From: an uncultured Candidatus Saccharibacteria bacterium
GTDB taxonomy: Bacteria > Patescibacteriota > Minisyncoccia > Phycocordibacterales > UBA2100
Assembly (NCBI GenBank): GCA_964434285.1
Contig: CAYSUJ010000002.1
Span: forward strand, 57,913-121,912
Reading direction: 5' to 3'
Length of the DNA stretch: 64,000 bases
The position numbers and the translations under genes are program-made. Shown in pieces: positions 2,255-62,472 of the stretch; the first letter of the stretch is position 1, and the number at the start of each line of letters is the position of its first letter. The notes beneath the pieces were generated by a model, which was not told the origin of the DNA, searched no databases, and saw nothing but the letters and a program-made list of their open reading frames with translations.

Positions 2255-2496
2255 AGACTGGTTTACTTACGAGAGTGAAAGTAATAATATGCCTCTACAC
2301 AACCAATATTGAGCCGCAAGGCTAGTGCCTAAACCATTTGCTTCGGCGGGTGGCATGGCATGAAATCGTTGAGGATAGAAAACCCGTCATTCAGGGCGTC
2401 CTCAACGTTGCGGAGGGAAACTTCCGTAGGGGCCTAAAAACCCTCCTGGTGGCGGGCTTTGTGTTTGCCACCGGATTACAAACGTAATTCGGATAC

Positions 2497-13207: not shown

Positions 13208-14050
13208 GTGAAAGCTCGTTTCTCCCGCGGCGCCTCTCCCATCGCTGTTGTCGCAGCGCTCTCTGTCGCGATACTTATTGCCACCATTGGCTCGGAATTA
13301 GGCGAGCGCTTGCGCCCTGCGCCCGTGCGTGAGGTGCAGGAGCCCTCACAAGCACGGGCGTATGTCCCCATAACGGACGCCGATGGCGATGGCGTACCCG
13401 ACTGGCAGGAGGAATTCTTTGGCGCGAACGCCTCTTCAACGGTCGCGTCTTCAACCGTACCGAGCGACCCGGTGGAAGCCTTTGGCGGCGCCGTCATGCA
13501 GTCACTTGTTTCTGGCTATCTCTCACTTAAAGAATATGATCAATACACGCCCGAACGGGGAGAGATCCTCGCCGAACGCCTTGCTGCGGAAATGAAGGCG
13601 CCCGTCATCTTCGTCCCCCACACGGAATCCGAACTCACCCTCGTTGCAGAGACCGGTGAGGCACAACTTTTACGCTACCGAAGCGATATGCGTGAAGCAC
13701 TTGCGCCAATGGTCGATCTCTCTGCGGAGCCTGAATTTTCACTCTATGCGCGTTATGTCGCGACGAACGATGTGGCATGGCTCGATAAGCTCTCTGAAAC
13801 CGCAGCACGATACCGTGCGGCCGAATCAGCCGCGCTCCAGGTCGAAGTACCCATGAGCGCGAAGGAGGTACATCTCCGCGCCGTGAACGCCCTTGGAAAG
13901 TATACGGAGACCTTGGAGCGACTTGTCCGCTTTGCGGACGACCCGATAGCCTCATTGGTGCTTTTGAGAACGTATAATGAAGATGAGCGAGAATTCCTTC
14001 TCGCGTTTGATGTATTGGCAAAATTTTATGTTGAGAACATTGAGAAATAG
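13208..14050 (+). CDS. hypothetical secreted/anchored protein (T4SS-like locus)
   Basis: N-terminal hydrophobic anchor (IAVVAALSVAILIATIG). 280 aa. No family recognised. Confidence 0.4.
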   Translation: MKARFSRGASPIAVVAALSVAILIATIGSELGERLRPAPVREVQEPSQARAYVPITDADGDGVPDWQEEFFGANASSTVASSTVPSDPVEAFGGAVMQSLVSGYLSLKEYDQYTPERGEILAERLAAEMKAPVIFVPHTESELTLVAETGEAQLLRYRSDMREALAPMVDLSAEPEFSLYARYVATNDVAWLDKLSETAARYRAAESAALQVEVPMSAKEVHLRAVNALGKYTETLERLVRFADDPIASLVLLRTYNEDEREFLLAFDVLAKFYVENIEK

Positions 14051-15635
14051 TGCACATACGTTAAAGCTTCTTCTTGGCTTCTCTCTTTTACTCTGCACAC
14101 CTTTTACGGCGCATGGCCAAGCTCAGCCAAATCCAAATAATCCTAATCTGATAAACAGCACGCCACAACAAATCGCTGCATCTTCAACACTCTCTAACGA
14201 CGGAATCTTCGGCTGTCGCGGCGTCGGTGCGCAAGTCGCTAATGTAGGAACACAAACAGCAATTGGAGGCGTGTACGTTCCCGTCAACGACGCTGCTGTG
14301 ACACTTAATACAGGATTTTTGGTATATAAGGAATGTATTCTTGATGGTGTCGCACGCAAAATCGCCGAAAATGTCTCGGCGGAGTATCTCAACCAAAGCT
14401 ACCGAGCCTTCAGTCGCGGTCGCGGCGGAAATCCGCAGTATGTGACGAATATTGGGGAAGAAATGCGACGCCAGGGAAATATTATTGTCGTAAACGCACT
14501 CCAGGGCACCTATCAAAACGCTCTTTGTCCAGCATTTAAAAATACGGTGGTAGGGGGCTATGCACGACAGTTCGTACGCTCTCAAAACTCACCAGCGTCT
14601 ACCATAACCTGCAGTCTACCGACAAACCAAGATAACTATTGGGAGACTCTTGCCGCGTTCAGGGAACGCCAAAATTACCCGTACGGTGCATACCAAATAC
14701 TCGAAACCCAACTCGACGCTACTCTTGCATATAATGAAAGAAATCAACGAGAGCGCTGGGGGTGGAACAGGGGCGTCTATGATGCGGTTGATACCATTGA
14801 CAACCCATTGAATGCACGTGTGATCACCCCCGGATTTCTTATTGCTGATTCAATATCTCAGCTCAGCGGTTCCGGCTTCCGCCAGCTTGAGAATGCGAAT
14901 GAAATTGATCAAGTGGTAGGAAACCTCTTCGGCGGACTCACCACGCAACTCATTTCCGACACCCGGGGGCTTGAGGGTCTAGCGCAATCCGTAAACGGCC
15001 AACCGTCATATCTCGACCGCATGACAGCGCAAACTTCAGCAAATGTGCGTCAGCAGGCGACAAACGCCGCCCTCTCCATCATCAGTTCCGCACGCCAGAT
15101 CGAGGTGAACTACCGCACTGCAAAAGAAGCGATTGCAACAGGGTTAAGTAACGCAATCGAGCAATTGCGCTCTGCCGAGCGCCAGTGTTGGGATCTCATC
15201 ATCCCGGCCGTACAAACCTACGCTACGGGACAGGGAGTCTCACAACTAAACATTGCGACGTCGACGCAATTCTCTCAACAAATTATTGATTCGCAGATTG
15301 CACCACTTGCAACAACAACCATTAATGAGATCCGCGCATCAGACACCACCATTGGCGCTTTGAACGAACTCATATCCAGCGTGTCCAACAGCGCCTCCCA
15401 AGCAAATCAGCAACAAGCACTCCTGCGCCTCGACACACTGGTTGCAAACGGCCAGCTCCGCACCGCACAAGACGCGACGAACGCCGCGCAACAGCGTGAC
15501 AATGTGCTCGGCGCGCTTACCACGCTGGTAACAGACACCGTAAAGGGCTGGGGGGATAGTCCTGATCCTAATATCGGTTGGTGTAACGTCAACAACACTG
15601 CGGTAGTCGAGCGGTGGTTCAATGCATGGAAATAA
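14028..15635 (+). CDS. hypothetical secreted protein (T4SS-like locus)
   Basis: Signal peptide LKLLLGFSLLLCTPFTAHGQA, rich in Q/N/A/T. About 535 aa from ATG 14028. ORF track start is 13977. Confidence 0.4.
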   Translation: MLRTLRNSAHTLKLLLGFSLLLCTPFTAHGQAQPNPNNPNLINSTPQQIAASSTLSNDGIFGCRGVGAQVANVGTQTAIGGVYVPVNDAAVTLNTGFLVYKECILDGVARKIAENVSAEYLNQSYRAFSRGRGGNPQYVTNIGEEMRRQGNIIVVNALQGTYQNALCPAFKNTVVGGYARQFVRSQNSPASTITCSLPTNQDNYWETLAAFRERQNYPYGAYQILETQLDATLAYNERNQRERWGWNRGVYDAVDTIDNPLNARVITPGFLIADSISQLSGSGFRQLENANEIDQVVGNLFGGLTTQLISDTRGLEGLAQSVNGQPSYLDRMTAQTSANVRQQATNAALSIISSARQIEVNYRTAKEAIATGLSNAIEQLRSAERQCWDLIIPAVQTYATGQGVSQLNIATSTQFSQQIIDSQIAPLATTTINEIRASDTTIGALNELISSVSNSASQANQQQALLRLDTLVANGQLRTAQDATNAAQQRDNVLGALTTLVTDTVKGWGDSPDPNIGWCNVNNTAVVERWFNAWK

Positions 15636-17826
15636 TATGGGCACACTCTTCCGTTCGTTCGCAGTAGTCGCTCTTGTGAGCGCCCTACTCGTACCATCCA
15701 TTTTTGCACAAGCACAAGGCACACCCGGTGTTGGCGGAACAGACACACAAGTAGAGAGTGGCGGCGGATCGGGGATCACCGATACCGCAGGAAACATGCT
15801 TGAATCTCCATCGCCCGGTGGTAAGTCGTGGTTTGAATCATGGATTTGGGACCCTCTACTTAACTTGCTCGGCACCTCACTCATGACACTCTCAGCAGTA
15901 GTACTCACTATTGCGGGTAAAGCATTTGATACGTTTTTAAAATTAATGATTCTCGACTTCCGCACCACTTTTGATGGCACCATCAAGGGGATCCAGATTG
16001 GGTGGCAATTGTTCCGCGATTTAGCCAATCTTGCAATCATTGGCATTTTTGTGTTTGTCGCAGTTATGACCATCCTGGGCAAAACTGAATTTGGTGCCAA
16101 AAAACTGATCGCTCGGGTGCTCATTGTTGCCGTCCTCATAAATTTCAGCCTCCTTTTTACCAATATCGCGATAGAGACCACAAATTTCCTCTCCACCAAA
16201 TTCTGGCAGGCAATGTCGCCCCAAATCAAAGATCAAGGCACTGCACAAACATTCCTGAAGGCGTTTGGAATCGAGAATTACTGGAGTGATTCGTCTAAAC
16301 TGGTATCTGGCGTCACCACAAACACAGGAAGTGGCCTCACGGGTTTCATGTATGGAGTCGTGGGCGCGATCGCGTTCCTCATGATCTCATACGTACTTTT
16401 GTATGGTGCATTTGTAATTACCGCACGAGCGCTCCTACTCATATTCGCACTCTTAACCTCCTCCATCGCGTTCGCATCCATTATGCTTCCCGACCATCTC
16501 GCAAAAACTTCATATGTAGGGTGGTATGCCTGGAAATCAAACCTCATCAAAGCTGCCATGTTTGGCCCTCTCCTTATTCTCTTCCTCTGGATAACCATGA
16601 AGATCATTCAAGAGGCCAATCCAAACGGAGCTGGGCGTGCGCTTTCTACACTCGCCCACACTCCCGAAAAAGTAACTCCGGAAGCATGGCAACAGATAAT
16701 CATACTTATGATCGGCACTGGCATTCTCTACATCGCCATCCGCTCCGCGGGCTCGTTTGCGAATTCCATTGCCGGATACAGTGATCTTAAATTCGGACTT
16801 GGAGCTTCACTTGCATACGGTTCGCGCGGGCTGGGGGTGGTCGGACGTAATACCGTGGGAAGATACGCGACATGGCGAGACCCCAAGAACGAACAAGCAT
16901 TGCTACTGGCGAAATCACGTCTTGCTAATTTGGAAAACCAAGGAATTAAGGGGTTCCAGCGCTGGCAGGCGCAATCTGAGGTAAGCAGGCTCGAGCGTAC
17001 GAAACGAAATTCTGCCCGGCTTGCCGGCGGCAGCTTCAACGCACTCAATTACGATGTAACTAAGAAGTTGGTGAAGAATCTCGGAGCCCAAGGGGCTCTC
17101 GGAGAAAAAAATAAGAGCTTTGAAGCTCGTCTGAAAGAGACAAGTAAAGAAGCGGCCAAGAAAGCCCTTACCGAGACCGTTTCAAAGAAAGACGCGATGA
17201 AATCAGCAGAAGAACTCACGCGACAACAAAAGGACATGCTGAAGCAACAGAAAGAGGGTGCTCAAAAAGTCGTGGAAGAGATCAGGAAATCTACCGTCCA
17301 GTCGGCAAGTGCACAAAAGGCAAGCGAACAGCACGCCGCCGCAGCAGAACGAGCAGAAAAAGTACGCTCCGACGCAGAGAGACAAAAGATTGACGTTGAC
17401 AGAGAACATTCCTCCGGAAATATAGACAAACAGAAGCGTGACGAGTTGATACGAGCACAGGATAACCGCATTGAGAAAGCAAATGAGGAAGTGCAAACTA
17501 CATTAAAGGCTATGGAGAGCATTAATCAGCCCCTTCGCGATGCAACCGCGAAATACGAGAAAATTGCCGAACAACACGAATCCTACGACGTGACAAAAGA
17601 AGCAGAGAAAATCGCAAGTAGAGTACTTGAAAACAACGTGGAAGCAATGAAAGAGAAGGCTGCCAAATATGCCTCGTGGCCCGGAACGAGAAACGGTCTC
17701 TTCGCTCAAGCGGCGCGTGCTCAGGTGAAAGAACAAAAGGCCAAGAAGGAGTCGGACGATAAATCATCCAAAGCATTCAAAAATACGCTGAAAGAAATGT
17801 TAAAGGATGTAGAGAAAGAAAAGTAA
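15622..17826 (+). CDS. polytopic membrane protein, VirB6/TrbL-like, with charged coiled-coil C-terminal tail
   Basis: At least 6 hydrophobic helices in residues 90-370, then a Lys/Glu-rich coiled-coil tail of ~300 aa. Its position upstream of VirB4 fits a VirB6/TrbL role. Confidence 0.45.
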   Translation: MHGNNMGTLFRSFAVVALVSALLVPSIFAQAQGTPGVGGTDTQVESGGGSGITDTAGNMLESPSPGGKSWFESWIWDPLLNLLGTSLMTLSAVVLTIAGKAFDTFLKLMILDFRTTFDGTIKGIQIGWQLFRDLANLAIIGIFVFVAVMTILGKTEFGAKKLIARVLIVAVLINFSLLFTNIAIETTNFLSTKFWQAMSPQIKDQGTAQTFLKAFGIENYWSDSSKLVSGVTTNTGSGLTGFMYGVVGAIAFLMISYVLLYGAFVITARALLLIFALLTSSIAFASIMLPDHLAKTSYVGWYAWKSNLIKAAMFGPLLILFLWITMKIIQEANPNGAGRALSTLAHTPEKVTPEAWQQIIILMIGTGILYIAIRSAGSFANSIAGYSDLKFGLGASLAYGSRGLGVVGRNTVGRYATWRDPKNEQALLLAKSRLANLENQGIKGFQRWQAQSEVSRLERTKRNSARLAGGSFNALNYDVTKKLVKNLGAQGALGEKNKSFEARLKETSKEAAKKALTETVSKKDAMKSAEELTRQQKDMLKQQKEGAQKVVEEIRKSTVQSASAQKASEQHAAAAERAEKVRSDAERQKIDVDREHSSGNIDKQKRDELIRAQDNRIEKANEEVQTTLKAMESINQPLRDATAKYEKIAEQHESYDVTKEAEKIASRVLENNVEAMKEKAAKYASWPGTRNGLFAQAARAQVKEQKAKKESDDKSSKAFKNTLKEMLKDVEKEK

Positions 17827-17828
17827 GA

Positions 17829-18398
17829 ATGAGTATGGATGTAAACAAAGACTTTAAAGAAGCCCTTGCCCAGCGATTTAAGGAACTTCCCGCGCCGGTG
17901 CAGCAAGCCATAACATCGAGTGACATTGAGAAACGATTGCGCGAACTCGCCACCCAGCACCGACTTCACGTCGATCAATGGGATGCACTTGAAAATGAGG
18001 TTATGCTTGCCTTGCTTGGATTTGAACATCCGCAGGATCTTGAGAAAAACTTACGCAGTGCGCTTGGTGTAAGCGGCGAGACTGTGCAACATGTCGCACA
18101 AGATATAAACAGGATAGTATTCGAACCAATTCGCGAGGAGCTTGAGCGCCAGCTCGAACACCCACGGGCACAGGAAAAACAGCTCACAGGTGCCGAGGAA
18201 GCGCGGGAACAGCTCTTAAGGGGACAAAAAGCGAGTGACGCACCCCCTGTAACAACCCCTCCCGCCCCAACACCCCCCGCACCAAAAACAGATGCGACGG
18301 TGGCGCGTGCGCCCACGTCCGGCGCTTACAAACCCGGCGAAACTTCAATGGTGCGTAAATCAGTTGCTGACGACCCATATCGTGAATTGCCACAGTAA
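17829..18398 (+). CDS. hypothetical protein with Pro/Ala/Thr-rich C-terminus (T4SS-like locus)
   Basis: 189 aa, no family recognised. Tightly packed after the previous gene, 2-nt gap. Confidence 0.3.
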   Translation: MSMDVNKDFKEALAQRFKELPAPVQQAITSSDIEKRLRELATQHRLHVDQWDALENEVMLALLGFEHPQDLEKNLRSALGVSGETVQHVAQDINRIVFEPIREELERQLEHPRAQEKQLTGAEEAREQLLRGQKASDAPPVTTPPAPTPPAPKTDATVARAPTSGAYKPGETSMVRKSVADDPYRELPQ

Positions 18399-18427
18399 CA
18401 CCTCAATTCATTGGTATAATCTGGGGA

Positions 18428-18931
18428 ATGCAGTTCCAAGTGCCTCAATTCATCGAGGTCGAGGATAAGATCTTCGGACCACTTACGTTCAAACAATTCG
18501 TCTACGTTGCCGGGGGACTGGGCATCGCGTATATCCTCTGGCGCGCCCTTCCGACATTCCTTGCAGCCCCCCTTGGCCTCGCATTTGCAGGACTCGGCAT
18601 TGCGCTTGCCTTTGTACAGTACAACAGCCAGCCCTTCATCGTCGCCGTTGAGCACGCATTTTTCTACCTTATTCGCGGCAAGTTGTACCTCTGGAACAAC
18701 GAGCAGGCCGTTGCGCGCGCAAAAAAAACGAATCAAGAGACTGCTGCTTCGGCACAGGCACCGTATGTGCCACACCTTTCAGACAGCAAGCTCCACGAGC
18801 TCTCCTGGAGTCTTGATATCAACGAACGCATATCATCAGGCATCGCGAGCGGGGAAGACCGTGCACGAAATGTACCAACGGACGCACTTGTGGCGCCCGT
18901 ACGAACTGCTCGCGATGCGCTTCCCCAATAA
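18428..18931 (+). CDS. small two-TM membrane protein, VirB3/PrgI-like candidate
   Basis: Two hydrophobic helices (FVYVAGGLGIAYILWRAL, LGLAFAGLGIALAFV). Its size and position just before the VirB4 N-terminal-like ORF resemble VirB3/PrgI. Confidence 0.35.
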   Translation: MQFQVPQFIEVEDKIFGPLTFKQFVYVAGGLGIAYILWRALPTFLAAPLGLAFAGLGIALAFVQYNSQPFIVAVEHAFFYLIRGKLYLWNNEQAVARAKKTNQETAASAQAPYVPHLSDSKLHELSWSLDINERISSGIASGEDRARNVPTDALVAPVRTARDALPQ

Positions 18932-18933
18932 CT

Positions 18934-19596
18934 ATGCCCGAAGCATCTACGATTCGCTCAAAAAACCGCTCTACACAAGAGTTTGTGCCGATTTCTGAGG
19001 TGCGCGACGGCATTATTGTGCTTCGCGACGGCGGGCTTCGAGCAATCCTCCTTGCTTCATCGATCAACTTCGCCCTCAAATCCGAAGATGAACAAACGGC
19101 ATTTATCGTGCAGTTTCAAAACTTTCTAAACTCTCTCGATTTTTCGTGCCAAATATTCGTTGAATCGCGCATGTTAGACATCCGCCCGTATATCGCCACC
19201 CTTGAAGTGGCATATAAAAACCAGATCGATGACCTCATGCGAATACAGATCCGCGAGTACATCGAGTTTATAAAGAGCTTCACCGAGGCGGCAAATATCA
19301 TGACAAAGAATTTCTTTGTAGTGGTGCCATATGCCGCATCGTCCCTCCCTTCCATTAGTGGTGGTGTGGGGGGGAAAATATTCGGCGCAAAAAATGCACC
19401 GAGCGCGGCTGATGCGAACCGCACGTTTGAAGAAAAAGTCTCGCAACTTGAGCAGCGTATTGCCATTGTCCAACAGGGCCTTGTCCGCTGCGGTGTACGC
19501 ACCGTGCAACTCGGCACCGAGGAGGCAATCGAGCTCTTCTACAAACTCTTCAATCCTGGGGAGGAGGGAAAGCCAATGCCTCTCAATAGTGAATAG
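18934..19596 (+). CDS. VirB4/TrbE N-terminal-domain-like protein, putative detached N-terminal part of VirB4
   Basis: The pattern VPISEVRDGIIVLRDGGLRAILLASSINFALKSEDEQ resembles the conserved N-terminal region of VirB4/TrbE/CagE ATPases. The downstream ATPase ORF lacks that region. 220 aa. Confidence 0.4.
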   Translation: MPEASTIRSKNRSTQEFVPISEVRDGIIVLRDGGLRAILLASSINFALKSEDEQTAFIVQFQNFLNSLDFSCQIFVESRMLDIRPYIATLEVAYKNQIDDLMRIQIREYIEFIKSFTEAANIMTKNFFVVVPYAASSLPSISGGVGGKIFGAKNAPSAADANRTFEEKVSQLEQRIAIVQQGLVRCGVRTVQLGTEEAIELFYKLFNPGEEGKPMPLNSE

Positions 19597-19601
19597 TGTG
19601 T

Positions 19602-19680
19602 AGACTGTAGTTTGTAGTCGGGGAAATCGGATACAATAGTATCTATGTGCACATTCACTACAGACTACAAACTACAGTCT
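19602..19680. repeat. 18-bp perfect inverted repeat (agactgtagtttgtagtc / gactacaaactacagtct) with a 43-nt spacer, between the two VirB4 parts
   Basis: Read directly from the sequence: arms at 19602-19619 and 19663-19680. Confidence 0.8.
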
Positions 19681-19693
19681 GCAGACTAACCCT

Positions 19694-21643
19694 ATGGGAT
19701 TATTCGATCTTTTTTCAAAAGGGGGGGCGGAACCGGCAGCGGTTTTACCCGTACTTCCAGAAGAAATCTACCGCACAGGCGTGCTTGGTCTTCAAGACGT
19801 CATTGCTCCCCACGCCCTCAAGGTCAATTCACGAGAACTGGACTTGGGCGAGAAAATTGCGCGGACATTCTTTGTGATTTCCTACCCCCGGTTCCTCACG
19901 ACGGGCTGGTTCGCACCCATCATCAATATCGACAAGGTTCTGGATGTTTCAATCTTCGTTCACCCCATGGATACGAACGAGATGCTTCGTAAATTTCAGA
20001 AAAAGGTCGCAGAGGTTCAATCACAGATCTCGACTCGTGAAGAGAAGGGGATGGTGCGTGACCCCGTCCTCGACACGGCCTATCAAGACCTTGAAAAGCT
20101 ACGTGATTCTTTACAACAAGCGCAGGAACGCATCTTTGAAGTGGGGCTTTACCTTACGATTTACGGCAACACCCGCGAAGAAATCGACAAAACCGAGAGC
20201 GAAATCCGCTCTATTCTTGAATCGCGCCTTGTCTACATCCGTCCTGCGTTGTTCCAGCAAGAACAAGGGTTCCGCTCGGTAATTCCGCTCGCAACAGACG
20301 AACTCGGCGTGCATACTAAGCTCAATTCCGCACCACTTTCCTCAATTTTCCCCTTTATTTCATTCGACCTCACGTCCGATAGGGGAATTTTGTATGGCAT
20401 CAACCGCCACAATTCATCGCTTATACTTTTCGACCGTTTCTCACTTGAAAACTACAATTCGGTTACGTTCGCAAAGTCGGGTTCGGGGAAAAGCTATACA
20501 ACTAAACTAGAAATTCTCCGCTCCCTCATGTTTGACACCGAGGTGATCGTGATCGACCCGGAACGCGAGTATGAATACCTCGCAGAGACAGTCGGTGGGC
20601 GTTATTTCAATATCTCACTTTCATCAGAGCACCACATCAATCCGTTTGATCTTGCAATACCGCGCGAAGACGAGTCTCCGGGCGACGTGCTCCGCAACAA
20701 CATCATTACGCTCGTGGGTCTTTTCCGCATTATGCTCGGCGGTTTGACACCAGAAGAAGATGCAATTATTGATAAAGCGATCACCGAAACCTACGCCTTG
20801 AAAGACATCACCGCAGACGCCAACTTCGCTTCTATCGAGCCGCCGCTCCTCTCGGACTTCGAACTCGTGCTCTCTGGCATGGAAGGATCGGAATCTCTCG
20901 TTGCACGTCTTTCAAAGTACACCAAAGGCACCTGGGCAGGATTCATGAACCGCCCAACAAACGTCGACATGAACAAGAAGCTCATCGTCTTTTCTGTGCG
21001 CGACATGGAGGATGATCTGAAGCCCGTCGCCATGTACATCATCACGCACCACATCTGGAACGCCGTGCGCAAAGAACTCCGCAAGCGCCTCCTCGTGATC
21101 GATGAGGCGTGGTGGATGATGAAATCGGAAGACACAGCATCCTTCCTCTTCGGCATCGCGAAGCGCGGCCGCAAATACTATCTCGGCCTCTCAACCATCA
21201 CCCAAGACGTAAATGACTTTCTTACGTCGCCCTACGGAGCGGCCATGATCACCAACTCATCAATCCAGTTACTCCTGCGCCAGTCACCAACATCGGTCGA
21301 TCTCGTCCAGCAAACGTTCAAACTTTCTGATGAAGAAAAGTATCTCCTCCTCGAATCAGATGTGGGGGAGGGGATCTTTTTCGCAGGCTTGAAGCACGTC
21401 GCGATCAAGGTCATTGCCTCGTATACCGAAGACCAAATCATTACCTCTGACCCGTCTCAGATTCTTGCCATCAAAAAGGCCAAGCAGGAACTTGTCGCCT
21501 CGCAAGATGTGCCGCCAACACCTGTCAGCTACGAGGCACGTAGTGCTGCGGCAGACGTACTCAAGAACGCGGAATTAAAGAGTGCGAGTGGGGCAACCCA
21601 GCAAGCTCCTAGTGAGCCCCCGCTCCCGCCCGGTGTTGTATGA
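19694..21643 (+). CDS. type IV secretion/conjugation ATPase VirB4 (TraE/TrsE-type), ATPase domain
   Basis: Walker A FAKSGSGKSYT and Walker B LLVIDEAWWMM. The region YPRFLTTGWFAPIIN is typical of Gram-positive-type VirB4. 649 aa. Confidence 0.8.
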   Translation: MGLFDLFSKGGAEPAAVLPVLPEEIYRTGVLGLQDVIAPHALKVNSRELDLGEKIARTFFVISYPRFLTTGWFAPIINIDKVLDVSIFVHPMDTNEMLRKFQKKVAEVQSQISTREEKGMVRDPVLDTAYQDLEKLRDSLQQAQERIFEVGLYLTIYGNTREEIDKTESEIRSILESRLVYIRPALFQQEQGFRSVIPLATDELGVHTKLNSAPLSSIFPFISFDLTSDRGILYGINRHNSSLILFDRFSLENYNSVTFAKSGSGKSYTTKLEILRSLMFDTEVIVIDPEREYEYLAETVGGRYFNISLSSEHHINPFDLAIPREDESPGDVLRNNIITLVGLFRIMLGGLTPEEDAIIDKAITETYALKDITADANFASIEPPLLSDFELVLSGMEGSESLVARLSKYTKGTWAGFMNRPTNVDMNKKLIVFSVRDMEDDLKPVAMYIITHHIWNAVRKELRKRLLVIDEAWWMMKSEDTASFLFGIAKRGRKYYLGLSTITQDVNDFLTSPYGAAMITNSSIQLLLRQSPTSVDLVQQTFKLSDEEKYLLLESDVGEGIFFAGLKHVAIKVIASYTEDQIITSDPSQILAIKKAKQELVASQDVPPTPVSYEARSAAADVLKNAELKSASGATQQAPSEPPLPPGVV

Positions 21644-22647
21644 GGGTCATAATCGTAGCACTCGCACTTCTCATCGCGCTTCCCGTGCATGCACAATCAT
21701 TTGTGACCGGTATTGAACGTACGCTTTCCATTACTACCACCCCCGCCTTTCCAACAGCAGGCGAGCCGGTGACGCTTTCGCTTGATGGCTACGCCGTTGA
21801 TATTGATCGCAGTATGGTCGTATGGTACGTGGATGAAAAGGAGATAAAACGGGGGTCAGGACTGCGCACCCTTGAAGTACAGGCGCCACCAATCGGTTCG
21901 GAAAAAAGGGTGCGCGCAGTAGCAGAAGAACCGTCAGGAATTCTGGCAACGGGCGAAGCAGCGCTACGCCCAGGATCCGTAACACTCATGTGGGAAGCAG
22001 ATTCGTACACTCCACCATTCTATCGAGGAAGGGCGCTTCCTGGATCCCAAAGCCCCATCCGCGCACAGGCGGTTCCCGATCTTCGACGCGACGCGGCTCG
22101 CATACCGACCAACGACATTGTTTTTACATGGCTTCGAGATGGCGCTCGGTTTGCCTCGGGTCGCGGGCTCACCTCAGTCACTTTTGCCGGACCGTCGCTA
22201 TTCGATATGGATAGAATTACTGTGGTTGCGGAATCGCTTGATGGCACCATCGTCGCTCGTGATGAAACAAATCTCCGAGGAGCCGACCCTAAAATAGAAC
22301 TATATGAGCACCATCCACTTTTTGGCACACTATACCACCGCGCGTTTGTGGGAACCGTTATAAATAGGGAAGCCGAACAAAAATTTGCCGCCGTGCCATT
22401 TTTTGCACCCCACTCACCACGTGATCCGAACCTTATATACAAATGGATGGTGAACACCACACCAATCGAACCGGGACCTACGACACCCGATATACTCACC
22501 ATCCGCCGCGAAGATGCCTTCGCAGGCATCATCACGATCGGACTGACACTCACGAGTATTTCTAACATATTCTTCCAAGCAACCAATGCATGGACCGTAC
22601 ACCTCTCAAGTGATGTGGTATCCAATAATCCATTTCTCGGCCTATGA
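21640..22647 (+). CDS. hypothetical secreted protein (T4SS-like locus)
   Basis: Signal peptide MRVIIVALALLIALPVHAQS. Start overlaps the VirB4 stop (ATGA). Confidence 0.4.
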   Translation: MRVIIVALALLIALPVHAQSFVTGIERTLSITTTPAFPTAGEPVTLSLDGYAVDIDRSMVVWYVDEKEIKRGSGLRTLEVQAPPIGSEKRVRAVAEEPSGILATGEAALRPGSVTLMWEADSYTPPFYRGRALPGSQSPIRAQAVPDLRRDAARIPTNDIVFTWLRDGARFASGRGLTSVTFAGPSLFDMDRITVVAESLDGTIVARDETNLRGADPKIELYEHHPLFGTLYHRAFVGTVINREAEQKFAAVPFFAPHSPRDPNLIYKWMVNTTPIEPGPTTPDILTIRREDAFAGIITIGLTLTSISNIFFQATNAWTVHLSSDVVSNNPFLGL

Positions 22648-33405: not shown

Positions 33406-33688
33406 AGCTGACAGAAGTGGCGTTACCGCGCCATTTTTTGTTTGCCACGAAGGCACAACAAAACTCAATCAGGGGCGCAGATCTCCGAGCATACCAGGAC
33501 TCCTTCAAGGATGAGGCGGTGCCCGCTTTATGCGGATCCACTACCTCTTTCCTCAGACTTTGTCCGACTTTCGATGTTCTATTGAAAGCATGCTCGGAGA
33601 TGTGCGACTCTCACGAGAATTTCTACAGAAACGATAGCATCGAAACGCGAATACACAACATATTTTTCGTGTCGTGATGTACACGATA

Positions 33689-33761
33689 CAAAAAACACCG
33701 ACGCAAGCCCGCACACTAATGTAAAAACAAACATTAGTGTGCGGGCAAGTCGGTGTTTTTT
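33689..33761. terminator. strong bidirectional intrinsic terminator: 15-bp perfect stem gcccgcacactaatg / cattagtgtgcgggc, flanked by an A-run and a T-run
   Basis: The sequence caaaaaacaccgac...gtcggtgtttttt is itself palindromic. It lies downstream of pilB on the minus strand. Confidence 0.7.
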
Positions 33762-33880
33762 GTGATTGTTCGGGCAAAATATGTTCTGAGGGTCTCTCGC
33801 AGGTCGACGGGCCGAGAGTGAGCGCTGGCAGAGCACTGCCAGACAGCGACCCGAAGAACATATTTTGACTGAACAAACCT

Positions 33881-41306: not shown

Positions 41307-42325
41307 GTGAACACGTCGACTGTGCGTCCTTCGGCGTCGAGGAGTCGAATGACGTCATGTGATGTGCGCCACAACTCGCCGCTTGAGCCGAGGAAAAGTC
41401 TCCACACGTTTTCTTGAAAATCTGCTCGATAGCTCTGCGAACGAACACAGCCATTGTACGAAAGCGTATCGCCTAATTGTGTTCGGCAGGCTTGTGTGAG
41501 TGTGTGGGGGAGTTCTTGTGGGAAACGACATGATTGCATTCCTTGGAGTACATCGAAACATTCTGAACCAAGACGTGTCAGATTTTGCTCGGTGAGCGGT
41601 ATGAGCGACGATGGGGAGGGACAGTTCTCTGAAAGTGGTGGCGTGAATGGTTGGAATTGTTGGAGATACCCCGTGCAGGAATTTTCTCGAAATGAAACAC
41701 CGACTGGTGAAGCGCCGCTCGTGACGATCGCGATGCCGCCCGGCGCGAGTGTGACGGCGCCGAGTGTATTCGGAAGCCCTTGAGCGAAAACGGATGTGGC
41801 GCTTGGGATGGTGACCTTCATGCCCGTGAGCGCGCTTTCCAGTGTCCAGCCACGGATATCAATTGCTGCGCTATTTTGGTAATCGGCTTGGAGTTGTATG
41901 TATTCTTCTGATGCGTTCGTTGCGTGGATACCTGCGTCGCGTGCGATGAAAACAGCGCGCGCAAAGGGTGAGGGCGTACCGAAATCACGCATTGCCGCGG
42001 CTTCGCGGTTGAGTCGTTCGTATTCGTTGGTGAGTGCGATGAGCTGTGCTTCGGCGCTTCCTGAGTCTTGTGCATATGGATCAGCGATGTTGAGTGCATC
42101 GGTTATATCAATCGTCGGGAAGAGCTGTGCCGGCTGCCAGGGGAGGCGAAATTCTCCGCCTTCTCTTGTTGCTGTCGGCGAGAGAAAGTTAATTGCAGAG
42201 ACGCCTTTAAATACTTCGCGTGGACCACCGCCGATAACCCAAAGCGCTACCGCAGCAAGCACGATTGCGATTAAGAGCCAGAGAACAACCCGACGGAACA
42301 TGCGCATAGTATACCCGCACACCAA
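41300..42325 (-). CDS. secreted protein with a lamin-tail-domain (LTD)-like segment
   Basis: N-terminal TM/signal. The segment EEYIQLQADYQNSAAIDIRGWTLES...LAPGGIAIVTSG resembles the LTD fold signature (GWTL). Confidence 0.35.
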   Translation of the reverse strand: MVCGYTMRMFRRVVLWLLIAIVLAAVALWVIGGGPREVFKGVSAINFLSPTATREGGEFRLPWQPAQLFPTIDITDALNIADPYAQDSGSAEAQLIALTNEYERLNREAAAMRDFGTPSPFARAVFIARDAGIHATNASEEYIQLQADYQNSAAIDIRGWTLESALTGMKVTIPSATSVFAQGLPNTLGAVTLAPGGIAIVTSGASPVGVSFRENSCTGYLQQFQPFTPPLSENCPSPSSLIPLTEQNLTRLGSECFDVLQGMQSCRFPQELPHTLTQACRTQLGDTLSYNGCVRSQSYRADFQENVWRLFLGSSGELWRTSHDVIRLLDAEGRTVDVFTY

Positions 42326-42354
42326 ACGAGTTACGTTTGGTGTGCGGGTATATC

Positions 42355-62239: not shown

Positions 62240-62472
62240 TTAGCTCGGATAGACTCTGAACCACACGCCAGCTAGGTCTTGCGACCCCATAGACCTTTCG
62301 ATCTATGACCCAACGAAGAGCCACTGAACGTGTGGTTCAGAATCTTCGTTGGGGTTTCGCTCCATATTTACCAACAAAAGTCAGTAAACTTAGGAGCATT
62401 TTTTATTCAGTTGTATATATATTTTAGCAAAAATACACCTTAAAGCAAAGGTTTTTAAGCGTCTGTGGAAAA

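What the first reader, a model, noticed from the sequence alone, without database searches (positions are those of the whole stretch)
18934..21643. VirB4 ATPase apparently split into an N-terminal-domain ORF and an ATPase ORF, separated by an 18-bp perfect inverted repeat
The 649-aa VirB4-like ORF has its Walker A at about residue 262, whereas full VirB4 proteins place it after about residue 430. The preceding 220-aa ORF carries the VirB4/TrbE N-terminal-domain pattern (VRDGIIVLRDGGLRAILLASSINFALKSEDEQ). Between them, in a different frame, is a 98-bp spacer with a perfect 18-bp inverted repeat (19602-19619 / 19663-19680) and a 43-nt loop. This could be a MITE-like insertion that split the gene, a programmed regulatory hairpin, or a natural two-gene VirB4.
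Basis: partly seen in the sequence, partly recalled or inferred. Interest (0 to 1): 0.6.

Follow-up and report, generated by a model that had tools for sequence, protein, structure and literature searches.

The report
Orphan IVS-like hairpin between trsD and virB4
The "split VirB4" is the normal, already described two-gene arrangement (TrsD plus VirB4) of Patescibacteria secretion operons, and the inverted repeat between the genes is a gene-less copy of a palindromic element otherwise known from 23S rRNA intervening sequences, which comes and goes at gene junctions of this operon.

Summary
The window has a 220-aa ORF (18934-19596), a 97-nt spacer and a 649-aa VirB4 ATPase ORF (19694-21643). 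It also has a perfect 18-bp inverted repeat, which extends to 26 nt at 92%, around a 43-nt loop.

The split is not damage. The 220-aa protein is a TrsD-family protein with a VirB4 N-terminal fold. Every orthologous locus with enough DNA (about 150) has the same two ORFs, and 60% of them sit 12 nt or less apart with no repeat. TrsD next to VirB4 in Patescibacteria is already published.

The hairpin is the more interesting part. About a quarter of orthologous loci carry a 74-125-nt hairpin at this junction, and about 7% carry a 411-484-nt insert. Both have arms built of tandem 7-nt repeats. The long form encodes a PF05635 "23S rRNA intervening-sequence protein". This matches the Coxiella 23S IVS, which RNase III excises. 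Short forms are gene-less derivatives of long ones.

These elements occupy three junctions of the operon. Copies within one genome are near-identical, and at least 29 gains or losses are inferred. The window's copy is a single orphan that its closest relatives lack. Function is inferred only: most likely a selfish insertion that forms an RNase III-type stem.

The parts
18428..18931 (+). PrgI / VirB3-like membrane protein gene, immediately upstream of trsD (2-nt gap)
   Evidence: Pfam PF12666 PrgI, E 2.1e-09. Same position in all related loci.
18934..19596 (+). trsD-like gene: a free-standing homologue of the VirB4 N-terminal domain (220 aa)
   Evidence: NCBIfam TrsD/TraD NF041427 E 1.4e-07. 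It aligns to N-terminal positions of the VirB4 profiles NF045975, NF045971 and TIGR00929. Precomputed Pfam family PF26593 TraC-like. The AlphaFold model (pLDDT 87) hits only TrwK/VirB4 chains. It is 39% identical to residues 8-210 of the fused 797-aa homologue P0254. More than 8000 homologues were found; the best 120 listed are 205-240 aa.
19583..19619 (+). Left array of 7-nt units: TCAATAG TGAATAG TGTGTAG ACTGTAG TTTGTAG TC. The second TAG (19594-19596) is the trsD stop codon. The left arm of the inverted repeat is 19594-19619.
   Evidence: Read from the sequence. Inverted repeat I1. Period-7 scan of the window.
19620..19662 (+). 43-nt loop. It holds a small inner hairpin (19629-19644) and a -10-like TACAAT (19632-19637).
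   Evidence: RNA fold and sequence. TANAAT is enriched on the + strand in loops of related hairpins: 18 of 45, shuffle mean 5.2. The promoter scan found no full sigma-70 site.
19658..19692 (+). Right array of 7-nt units: CTACAGA CTACAAA CTACAGT CTGCAGA CTAACCC. The right arm of the inverted repeat is 19663-19688 and ends 5 nt before the virB4 ATG.
19694..21643 (+). virB4 gene: the rest of the N-terminal domain plus the C-terminal ATPase domain (649 aa)
   Evidence: PDB 4AG5 VirB4 C-terminal domain E 5.6e-42, and TrwK. Pfam P-loop_TraG E 1.5e-25. NF045971 E 6.4e-108, profile positions 186-733 of 752. It is 56% identical to residues 226-796 of the fused homologue P0254.

Best explanation
There are two separate things here.

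(A) The two ORFs are the normal trsD-virB4 gene pair of the Patescibacteria type IV secretion operon. The N-terminal part of VirB4 is a separate polypeptide, as with TrsD/TrsE of the staphylococcal plasmid pGO1 (the prototype named in PMC12102498). In most relatives the two genes abut, which fits translational coupling.

(B) The inverted repeat is a gene-less copy of a palindromic insertion with the architecture of 23S rRNA intervening sequences (IVS). That architecture is two inverted arms made of tandem 7-nt repeats around a loop. In the full-length form the loop carries a PF05635 four-helix-bundle (S23p / 23S_rRNA_IVP) gene. These elements sit exactly between the stop codon of one gene and the start codon of the next in this operon. 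They are copied within genomes and turn over quickly between lineages. The window's copy is a lone, probably recent, arrival.

Inferred, not shown: the operon transcript folds the arms into a 26-bp stem whose base brings the trsD stop and the virB4 start close together. By analogy with rRNA IVSs, RNase III would cut this stem and separate the upstream and downstream parts of the mRNA. The element is most likely selfish or nearly neutral, not a host regulator.
For: The split is natural.
- 79 of 79 GTDB loci, and 151 loci after adding metagenome loci, have both ORFs.
- Spacing is 12 nt or less in 91 of 151.
- A fused homologue, P0254, is collinear with N then C.
- Profile matches are collinear: N covers positions 2-180 and C covers positions 186-733.
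- The predicted fold matches TrwK/VirB4.
- TrsD beside VirB4 in Patescibacteria is published.

Element identity.
- Spacer length is trimodal: 12 nt or less, 74-125 nt, and 411-484 nt.
- The long spacers each hold a + strand ORF matching PF05635, E 5e-36 to 1.9e-14.
- Arms have lag-7 identity of 0.58 (N|C) and 0.52 (PrgI|N), against about 0.25 at every other lag.
- The window's arms score 0.74 and 0.68.
- Short and long forms share arms: L099 with L081, and L042 with L075.
- The Coxiella 23S IVS has the same plan: 428-444 nt, a 28-bp terminal stem, an S23p ORF, tandem heptameric repeats of variable number, and RNase III excision in vitro.
- CPR rRNA genes also hold 23S_rRNA_IVP ORFs and short ORF-less inserts at IVS sites.

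Mobility and turnover.
- Copies at PrgI|trsD and trsD|virB4 in one genome are near-identical, loop included (L144: 110 of 122 columns; also L034, L146, L148, L019).
- Arm 9-mers are shared in 38% of same-genome pairs against 4.8% of between-genome pairs.
- Parsimony on an NJ tree needs at least 29 gains or losses among 116 loci, with root state 'none'.
- The nearest relatives L162 and L164 lack the element, and L167 has an unrelated 89-nt spacer.

Geometry. The left arm starts a median of 3 nt from the first base of the stop codon. The right arm ends a median of 9 nt before the ATG.
Against: - No long, ORF-bearing element with the window's own arm sequence was found. Its descent from a full-length element is inferred from other pairs.
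- Only one copy exists in the 64-kb window. In 20-kb neighbourhoods the elements occur only in the T4SS operon. That is odd for a generic mobile element and could point to an operon-specific role.
- Stem mismatches show no excess of G:U-compatible changes on the transcribed strand (43 against 52, p = 0.41). There is therefore no positive evidence for selection on the RNA structure.
- No RNase III gene was seen in the window by motif search, and cleavage is untested.
- The mechanism of insertion is unknown. No transposase and no target-site duplication were identified.
Confidence: 0.65

Rival explanations
1. Host regulatory hairpin. The stem is selected to set the ratio of TrsD to VirB4. It could do this by stabilising the upstream mRNA, by slowing ribosomes, or by holding stop and start codons together so that translational coupling survives a 97-nt spacer.
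For: The stem base puts the stop codon and the ATG within about 5-12 nt of each other, similar to the 1-12 nt spacing of loci without a hairpin. It is the only sizeable gap in an otherwise tightly packed operon. Many relatives carry the same set of elements at three junctions.
Against: It is absent from the closest relatives. At least 29 gains or losses are inferred. Arm sequences are unrelated between lineages. There is no strand-specific G:U signature. 60% of loci do without it.
Confidence: 0.15
2. Internal promoter. The loop carries a -10 element (TACAAT, 19632-19637) that drives virB4 on its own, and the inverted arms act as an operator or insulator.
For: TANAAT is found on the + strand in 18 of 45 loops of related hairpins (shuffle mean 5.2, maximum 11 in 500) and in only 1 of 45 on the - strand. 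The element-free junction upstream of prgI has an extended -10, TGGTATAAT, so internal promoters are plausible in this operon.
Against: The consensus scan finds no -35/-10 pair in 18300-19800. The loops are A-rich and related by descent, which inflates motif counts. A-rich leaders precede the start of the four-helix-bundle ORF in long forms, so the loop composition could be a remnant of that leader. Arm sequences vary too much to be one operator.
Confidence: 0.1
3. The 7-nt arrays are binding sites for the pentameric four-helix-bundle protein encoded by the long forms. The hairpins at the junctions would then be cis sites of a small regulatory or mobility module, and the window's copy an orphan site.
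For: Arms at different junctions of one genome share the same 7-nt units as the protein-coding cassette in that genome. There are 3-5 units per arm. All 53 four-helix-bundle ORFs are co-oriented with the operon. Family members score weakly against bAvd, below Pfam's cut-off. From general knowledge, bAvd is the nucleic-acid- and RT-binding accessory protein of diversity-generating retroelements.
Against: No four-helix-bundle gene was found in the 64-kb window. Sharing of units is equally explained by copying. The Coxiella work suggests S23p is not made in vivo. There are no binding data.
Confidence: 0.08
4. An insertion that broke an intact virB4. Under this reading the two ORFs are a pseudogenised or recently split gene.
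For: The N plus C lengths add up to a full VirB4, and the left arm supplies stop codons in all three frames in this window.
Against: The same split, with the same start methionine, occurs in every orthologous locus, and most have no insert. Both ORFs are highly conserved. TrsD is reported essential in a cultured relative. Only 22 of 101 left arms have stops in all three frames.
Confidence: 0.02

Closest known systems
TrsD + TrsE (VirB4) of the MPF-FATA subclass with prototype pGO1, and TrsD + VirB4 of Patescibacteria T4SS (PMC12102498)
   Same: A free-standing protein of about 200-220 aa, homologous to the VirB4 N-terminus, is encoded directly upstream of a shortened VirB4 ATPase. PrgI/VirB3, a VirB6-like protein and a pilin-like gene are in the same cluster. 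The operon lies near rnpA, rpmH and yidC, close to the replication origin.
   Different: Nothing material. This window is an ordinary member.
23S rRNA intervening sequence (IVS) with S23p ORF, e.g. Coxiella burnetii (PMC4990558)
   Same: Terminal inverted repeats form a 26-28-bp stem. The stem is built of tandem heptameric repeats whose number varies. The full-length form is about 430 nt and encodes a PF05635 four-helix-bundle protein. ORF decay and ORF-less forms occur. Distribution between lineages is sporadic.
   Different: It is located between protein-coding genes of an operon, not in helix 25 or 45 of 23S rRNA. The window's copy has no ORF. RNase III cutting is not shown here. Excision would cut an mRNA, not fragment a ribosomal RNA.
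MITEs (miniature inverted-repeat transposable elements)
   Same: A short, gene-less derivative of a longer element, with terminal inverted repeats. Related genomes hold near-identical copies at more than one site.
   Different: The longer relative encodes no known transposase. No target-site duplication was identified. There is one copy in 64 kb. The elements were seen only at gene junctions of one operon.
Intercistronic REP/BIME-type palindromes and RNase III processing stems in operons
   Same: A stable stem-loop between two cistrons of one transcript that could set differential mRNA stability.
   Different: REPs are short, genome-wide and conserved in sequence within a species. This element is long, has 7-nt periodic arms, differs in sequence between close relatives and is linked to a PF05635 gene.

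Membership tests
VirB4 encoded as two genes (TrsD + VirB4/TrsE) | The upstream protein is homologous to the VirB4 N-terminal domain | tested here: met
   NF041427 TrsD E 1.4e-07. VirB4 profiles are matched at their N-terminal positions. The top 14 PDB fold hits are all TrwK/VirB4, probability 1.00, TM 0.50-0.56. The plain sequence search and the profile search of the PDB found nothing.
VirB4 encoded as two genes (TrsD + VirB4/TrsE) | The downstream protein carries the VirB4 C-terminal ATPase domain with a Walker A motif | tested here: met
   4AG5 E 5.6e-42. P-loop_TraG E 1.5e-25. NF045971 362 bits, above its cut-off of 325.
VirB4 encoded as two genes (TrsD + VirB4/TrsE) | The two products are collinear with a single-chain VirB4, and the split is conserved in orthologues | tested here: met
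   In fused P0254, residues 8-210 match N and 226-796 match C. 151 of 151 loci with enough DNA are split.
23S rRNA IVS-type element | Terminal inverted repeats forming a stem of about 20-30 bp | tested here: met
   26-nt arms, 92% complementary, with an 18-bp perfect core. z = -7.9.
23S rRNA IVS-type element | Tandem heptameric repeats in the stem | tested here: met
   Five 7-nt units in each arm. Family-wide lag-7 identity is 0.58 against about 0.25.
23S rRNA IVS-type element | PF05635 (S23p / 23S_rRNA_IVP) ORF in the loop | tested here: not met
   The window's loop is 43 nt with no ORF, and no PF05635-like ORF exists anywhere in the window. The feature is met by elements at the same site in 10 related loci. 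ORF-less IVSs are known.
23S rRNA IVS-type element | Inserted in 23S rRNA (helix 25 or 45) | tested here: not met
   The element lies between two protein genes, and the window has no rRNA gene. It is therefore IVS-like in architecture, not an rRNA IVS.
23S rRNA IVS-type element | Excised from the transcript by RNase III without religation | not testable with these tools
   No transcript data are available. No rnc motif was found in the 64-kb window, which says nothing about the rest of the genome.
MITE | Several copies per genome | tested here: inconclusive
   One copy in this window. Two or three near-identical copies occur in related genomes, but only inside the same operon.
MITE | Target-site duplication and a parent element encoding a transposase | tested here: not met
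   No duplication was recognisable at the boundaries. The long form encodes only a four-helix-bundle protein.
Intrinsic terminator | G+C-rich stem followed by a T run | tested here: not met
   No + strand terminator-like site was found in 18300-19800. The right arm is followed by AACCCTATG.

The most novel reading that the evidence does not exclude
IVS-type palindromic cassettes (7-nt repeat arms, with or without a PF05635 four-helix-bundle gene) may not be rRNA-specific. They may be a general class of mobile element that settles exactly between stop and start codons in highly conserved operons. Spread would occur by copying within genomes and by recombination through conserved flanks. The pentameric four-helix-bundle protein may recognise the heptamer arrays. 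Such insertions could even be how genes like virB4 became split into trsD and virB4.
Probability: 0.15. Interest if true: 0.8.

Novelty: new variant of a known kind. Interest (0 to 1): 0.55.

Why it matters
The split VirB4 by itself is textbook for this lineage and needs no follow-up.

The hairpin matters because it links two things not connected in the papers searched and read here:
- the enigmatic 23S rRNA intervening sequences and their S23p / four-helix-bundle genes, whose origin, mobility and function have been open since about 1990; and
- the secretion operon near the replication origin of Patescibacteria, whose genes were found essential for epibiotic growth in the one strain tested (PMC12102498).

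This operon holds dozens of natural presence/absence variants, long and short forms, and fresh copies within genomes, all in a protein-coding context. That makes several questions testable. How do these elements move? Is the stem cut by RNase III in an mRNA? Does the four-helix-bundle protein bind the heptamer arrays? For annotation, it also warns that 80-480-nt gaps between T4SS genes in these genomes are insertions, not gene decay.

Tried and rejected
- Rfam (evalue mode on 18000-22000, gathering mode on the whole window) found no family for the spacer.
- The plain sequence search and the profile search of the PDB with the N ORF found nothing. Only the fold comparison found VirB4.
- The local Pfam copy gave no hit for the N ORF. 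The precomputed PF26593 'TraC-like' label came from the protein database.
- I considered that the left arm is a designed three-frame stop. This is true for the window, but only 22 of 101 left arms have stops in all three frames, so I dropped it as a general feature.
- The G:U against A:C mismatch test for a transcribed-strand RNA structure gave no bias: 43 against 52.
- The consensus promoter and terminator scan found nothing on the + strand.
- No long element with the window's arm sequence turned up in 170 or more loci; the best matches had 4 mismatches in 19 nt and were chance-like.
- A motif search for RNase III in the window found nothing.
- Literature searches for PF05635 or four-helix-bundle cassettes in protein operons or in CPR T4SS loci found no description.
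- An idea from memory, that HutP-like proteins bind UAG repeats spaced 4 nt apart, was not pursued because there is no evidence for such a protein here.
Full report
**1. What is in the window**

The region is part of a tightly packed + strand operon.
- 13977-15635: a 552-aa protein.
- 15622-17826: a 734-aa protein that I read as VirB6-like (multi-membrane-span) from its translation and position. It had no Pfam hit.
- 17829-18398: a 189-aa protein.
- 18428-18931: PrgI/VirB3-like (Pfam PF12666, E 2.1e-09).
- 18934-19596: a 220-aa ORF.
- 19694-21643: a 649-aa ORF.
- Then ORFs of 335, 404 and 147 aa. The last has a weak T4SS_pilin match.

On the opposite strand, further downstream, are ORFs that I read from their translations as a Jag-like protein, yidC, rnpA and rpmH. 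The same positions in related loci carry R3H, 60KD_IMP, Ribonuclease_P and Ribosomal_L34 domains, followed by dnaA. This is the origin-proximal context described for Patescibacteria T4SS (PMC12102498).

All other gene boundaries in the operon are overlaps or gaps of 30 nt or less. The 97-nt gap at 19597-19693 stands out.

The inverted repeat is exactly as reported. It extends to 26 nt at 92% (19594-19619 / 19663-19688). It is unique in the window. It folds far better than shuffles, with z = -7.9. It is identical in a second assembly.

**2. The split is natural and already known**

The 220-aa protein has more than 8000 database homologues. The best 120 listed are 205-240 aa and come from Paceibacterota, Kaiserbacteria and Minisyncoccia; several are labelled 'VirB4 component'.

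Evidence that it is a VirB4 N-terminal domain:
- It matches the TrsD/TraD family model.
- It matches the N-terminal positions of three full-length VirB4 models.
- The 649-aa protein matches the same models from about position 186 onward, including NF045971 above its curated cut-off.
- A fused 797-aa homologue (P0254) is collinear with N then C.
- An AlphaFold model of the N ORF (pLDDT 87) finds only R388 TrwK/VirB4 chains in the PDB: the top 14 hits have probability 1.00 and the next hit has 0.16.

In 80 species-representative genomes and 80 metagenome contigs, every locus with enough DNA (151) has the same two ORFs. The ATPase ORF starts at the same methionine in each.

Garcillán-Barcia and colleagues (PMC12102498) report TrsD as the most abundant T4SS component in Patescibacteria. 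It usually lies next to virB4 and is essential in a cultured strain.

**3. The spacer is variable, and the variation is structured**

Across 151 loci the trsD-virB4 spacing is trimodal:

| Spacing | Loci |
|---|---|
| 12 nt or less | 91 |
| 13-61 nt | 13 |
| 74-125 nt | 36 |
| 291 nt | 1 |
| 411-484 nt | 10 |

Short class (74-125 nt). These are hairpins like the window's. The arm sequences are unrelated between lineages, but the plan is constant. Arms are made of three to five tandem 7-nt units, for example CTACAAG x4, GCTGAAA x3 and CTAGAAG x4. The loop is A-rich and about 39 nt. A short tail follows before the ATG. Lag-7 identity in the arms is 0.58, against about 0.25 at all other lags.

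Long class (411-484 nt). These have the same kind of arms around a single + strand ORF of 117-133 aa. The ORF belongs to PF05635, '23S rRNA-intervening sequence protein', annotated elsewhere as 'four helix bundle protein'.

Link between the two. Short and long forms can share arms almost base for base: L099 with L081, and L042 with L075. The short form is therefore the long form minus its gene.

**4. The same elements occupy other junctions and are copied within genomes**

A profile built from the ten ORFs finds 53 PF05635-like ORFs in the fetched loci. All are co-oriented with the operon. They sit at three junctions: 189-aa gene|prgI (the commonest), prgI|trsD and trsD|virB4. Most are flanked by inverted 7-nt arrays.

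In several genomes the hairpins at prgI|trsD and trsD|virB4 are near-identical through arms and loop. In L144, 110 of 122 columns match. In L034 the copies differ by one 7-nt unit.

Same-genome elements share arm 9-mers eight times more often than elements from different genomes.

In 20-kb neighbourhoods and in the 64-kb window, no such element occurs outside these junctions.

**5. Turnover**

On a neighbour-joining tree of TrsD+VirB4, presence of an element at trsD|virB4 needs at least 29 changes among 116 distinct loci, and the inferred root state is 'absent'.

The window's nearest relatives have 4-nt and 1-nt spacers (L162 and L164) but carry a four-helix-bundle cassette upstream of prgI. 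The next relative (L167) has an 89-nt spacer with unrelated, decayed arms.

The window has no PF05635 gene at all. Its hairpin is therefore a lone and probably recent acquisition.

**6. Comparison with known elements**

The Coxiella burnetii 23S rRNA IVS has these features (PMC4990558):
- length of 428-444 nt;
- terminal inverted repeats forming a 28-bp stem;
- an S23p ORF of the same family;
- two or three tandem heptameric repeats (GACAGAT) in the 5' stem, whose number varies between strains;
- excision by RNase III in vitro;
- an ORF that is decaying.

CPR rRNA genes contain 23S_rRNA_IVP ORFs and many short ORF-less inserts at IVS sites (PMC11270868).

The element here matches that architecture on every sequence feature I could test. 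It fails two defining features of an rRNA IVS: its location (it is in an mRNA) and, for this copy, the ORF. I therefore call it IVS-like, not an IVS.

It resembles a MITE in being a gene-less, inverted-repeat derivative with copies within genomes. It lacks a transposase-encoding parent, a recognisable target duplication and a genome-wide distribution.

**7. How it probably works**

Shown:
- the DNA anatomy;
- the family relationships;
- placement exactly between stop and start (left arm begins a median of 3 nt from the first base of the stop codon, right arm ends a median of 9 nt before the ATG);
- in the window, the trsD stop codon is itself the second unit of the left array.

Inferred: the operon transcript forms a 26-bp stem. 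By analogy with rRNA IVSs, RNase III would cut it, giving separate upstream and downstream mRNAs. Alternatively, ribosomes simply unwind it.

I could find no signature of selection for the RNA structure. G:U-compatible against A:C mismatches were 43 against 52. There is no terminator. Together with the rapid turnover, this favours a selfish or near-neutral insertion over a host regulator.

Two observations keep other readings alive:
- A -10-like TANAAT is enriched on the + strand in loops: 18 of 45 against 5.2 expected. The window has TACAAT at 19632-19637.
- The elements appear confined to this operon, and arm units are shared between a genome's cassette and its hairpins. That would also fit heptamer arrays acting as binding sites for the four-helix-bundle pentamer.

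**8. Verdict**

The 'split gene' is ordinary and already described.

The repeat is a new variant of a known kind: an ORF-less, IVS-type palindromic cassette in an intercistronic position of a protein-coding operon. I found no description of such cassettes in T4SS or other protein operons. That search covers only the open-access library available here.

Noticed in passing
related loci, e.g. L162:2050-2495, L170:9958-10422, L175, L177: About 40 related loci carry a PF05635 four-helix-bundle cassette with inverted 7-nt arms between the 189-aa gene and prgI. Many genomes carry the full set: a cassette upstream of prgI plus hairpins at prgI|trsD and trsD|virB4. All 53 such ORFs are co-oriented with the operon.
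   Followed up: partly
window 18408-18416: An extended -10-like sequence, TGGTATAAT, lies 11 nt upstream of the prgI start codon (18428). The relative L167 has TGCTATAAT at the same place. This may be an internal promoter with a very short leader.
   Followed up: no
window 2326-2444 (+) and 62274-62396 (-): Two copies of LOOT RNA (Rfam RF03000) score 70 and 78 bits, above the gathering score of 46.4. The inverted repeat at 62251-62345 lies within the second copy.
   Followed up: no
window 33469-33880: A 412-nt intergenic region between two minus-strand genes holds nested inverted repeats. One is a 15+16-bp double stem with A/T runs on both sides (33688-33763), which looks like a bidirectional terminator. 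The other is a 32-nt, 84% inverted repeat with a 47-nt loop (33766-33876). Neither has 7-nt periodicity.
   Followed up: no
window 42310-42352: A perfect 19-bp inverted repeat with a 5-nt loop (TATACCCGCACACCAAACG / CGTTTGGTGTGCGGGTATA). It shares the motif GCCCGCACAC / GTGTGCGGGC with the hairpin at 33707-33746.
   Followed up: no
P0254 (797 aa, from the representative library): A single-chain homologue in which the TrsD-like and VirB4 parts are fused (39% and 56% identity to the window's two proteins). Several other hits of 280-440 aa may be partial fused forms or extended TrsD proteins. Whether fusion or split is ancestral was not resolved.
   Followed up: partly
L041:4667-4957 and L067 downstream of trsD: Two odd loci. 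L041 has a 291-nt trsD|virB4 spacer with an 84-aa ORF that has no Pfam hit. L067 has no virB4 within 955 nt downstream of trsD and instead has a reversed prgI-like ORF, which suggests a rearranged or duplicated partial cluster.
   Followed up: no
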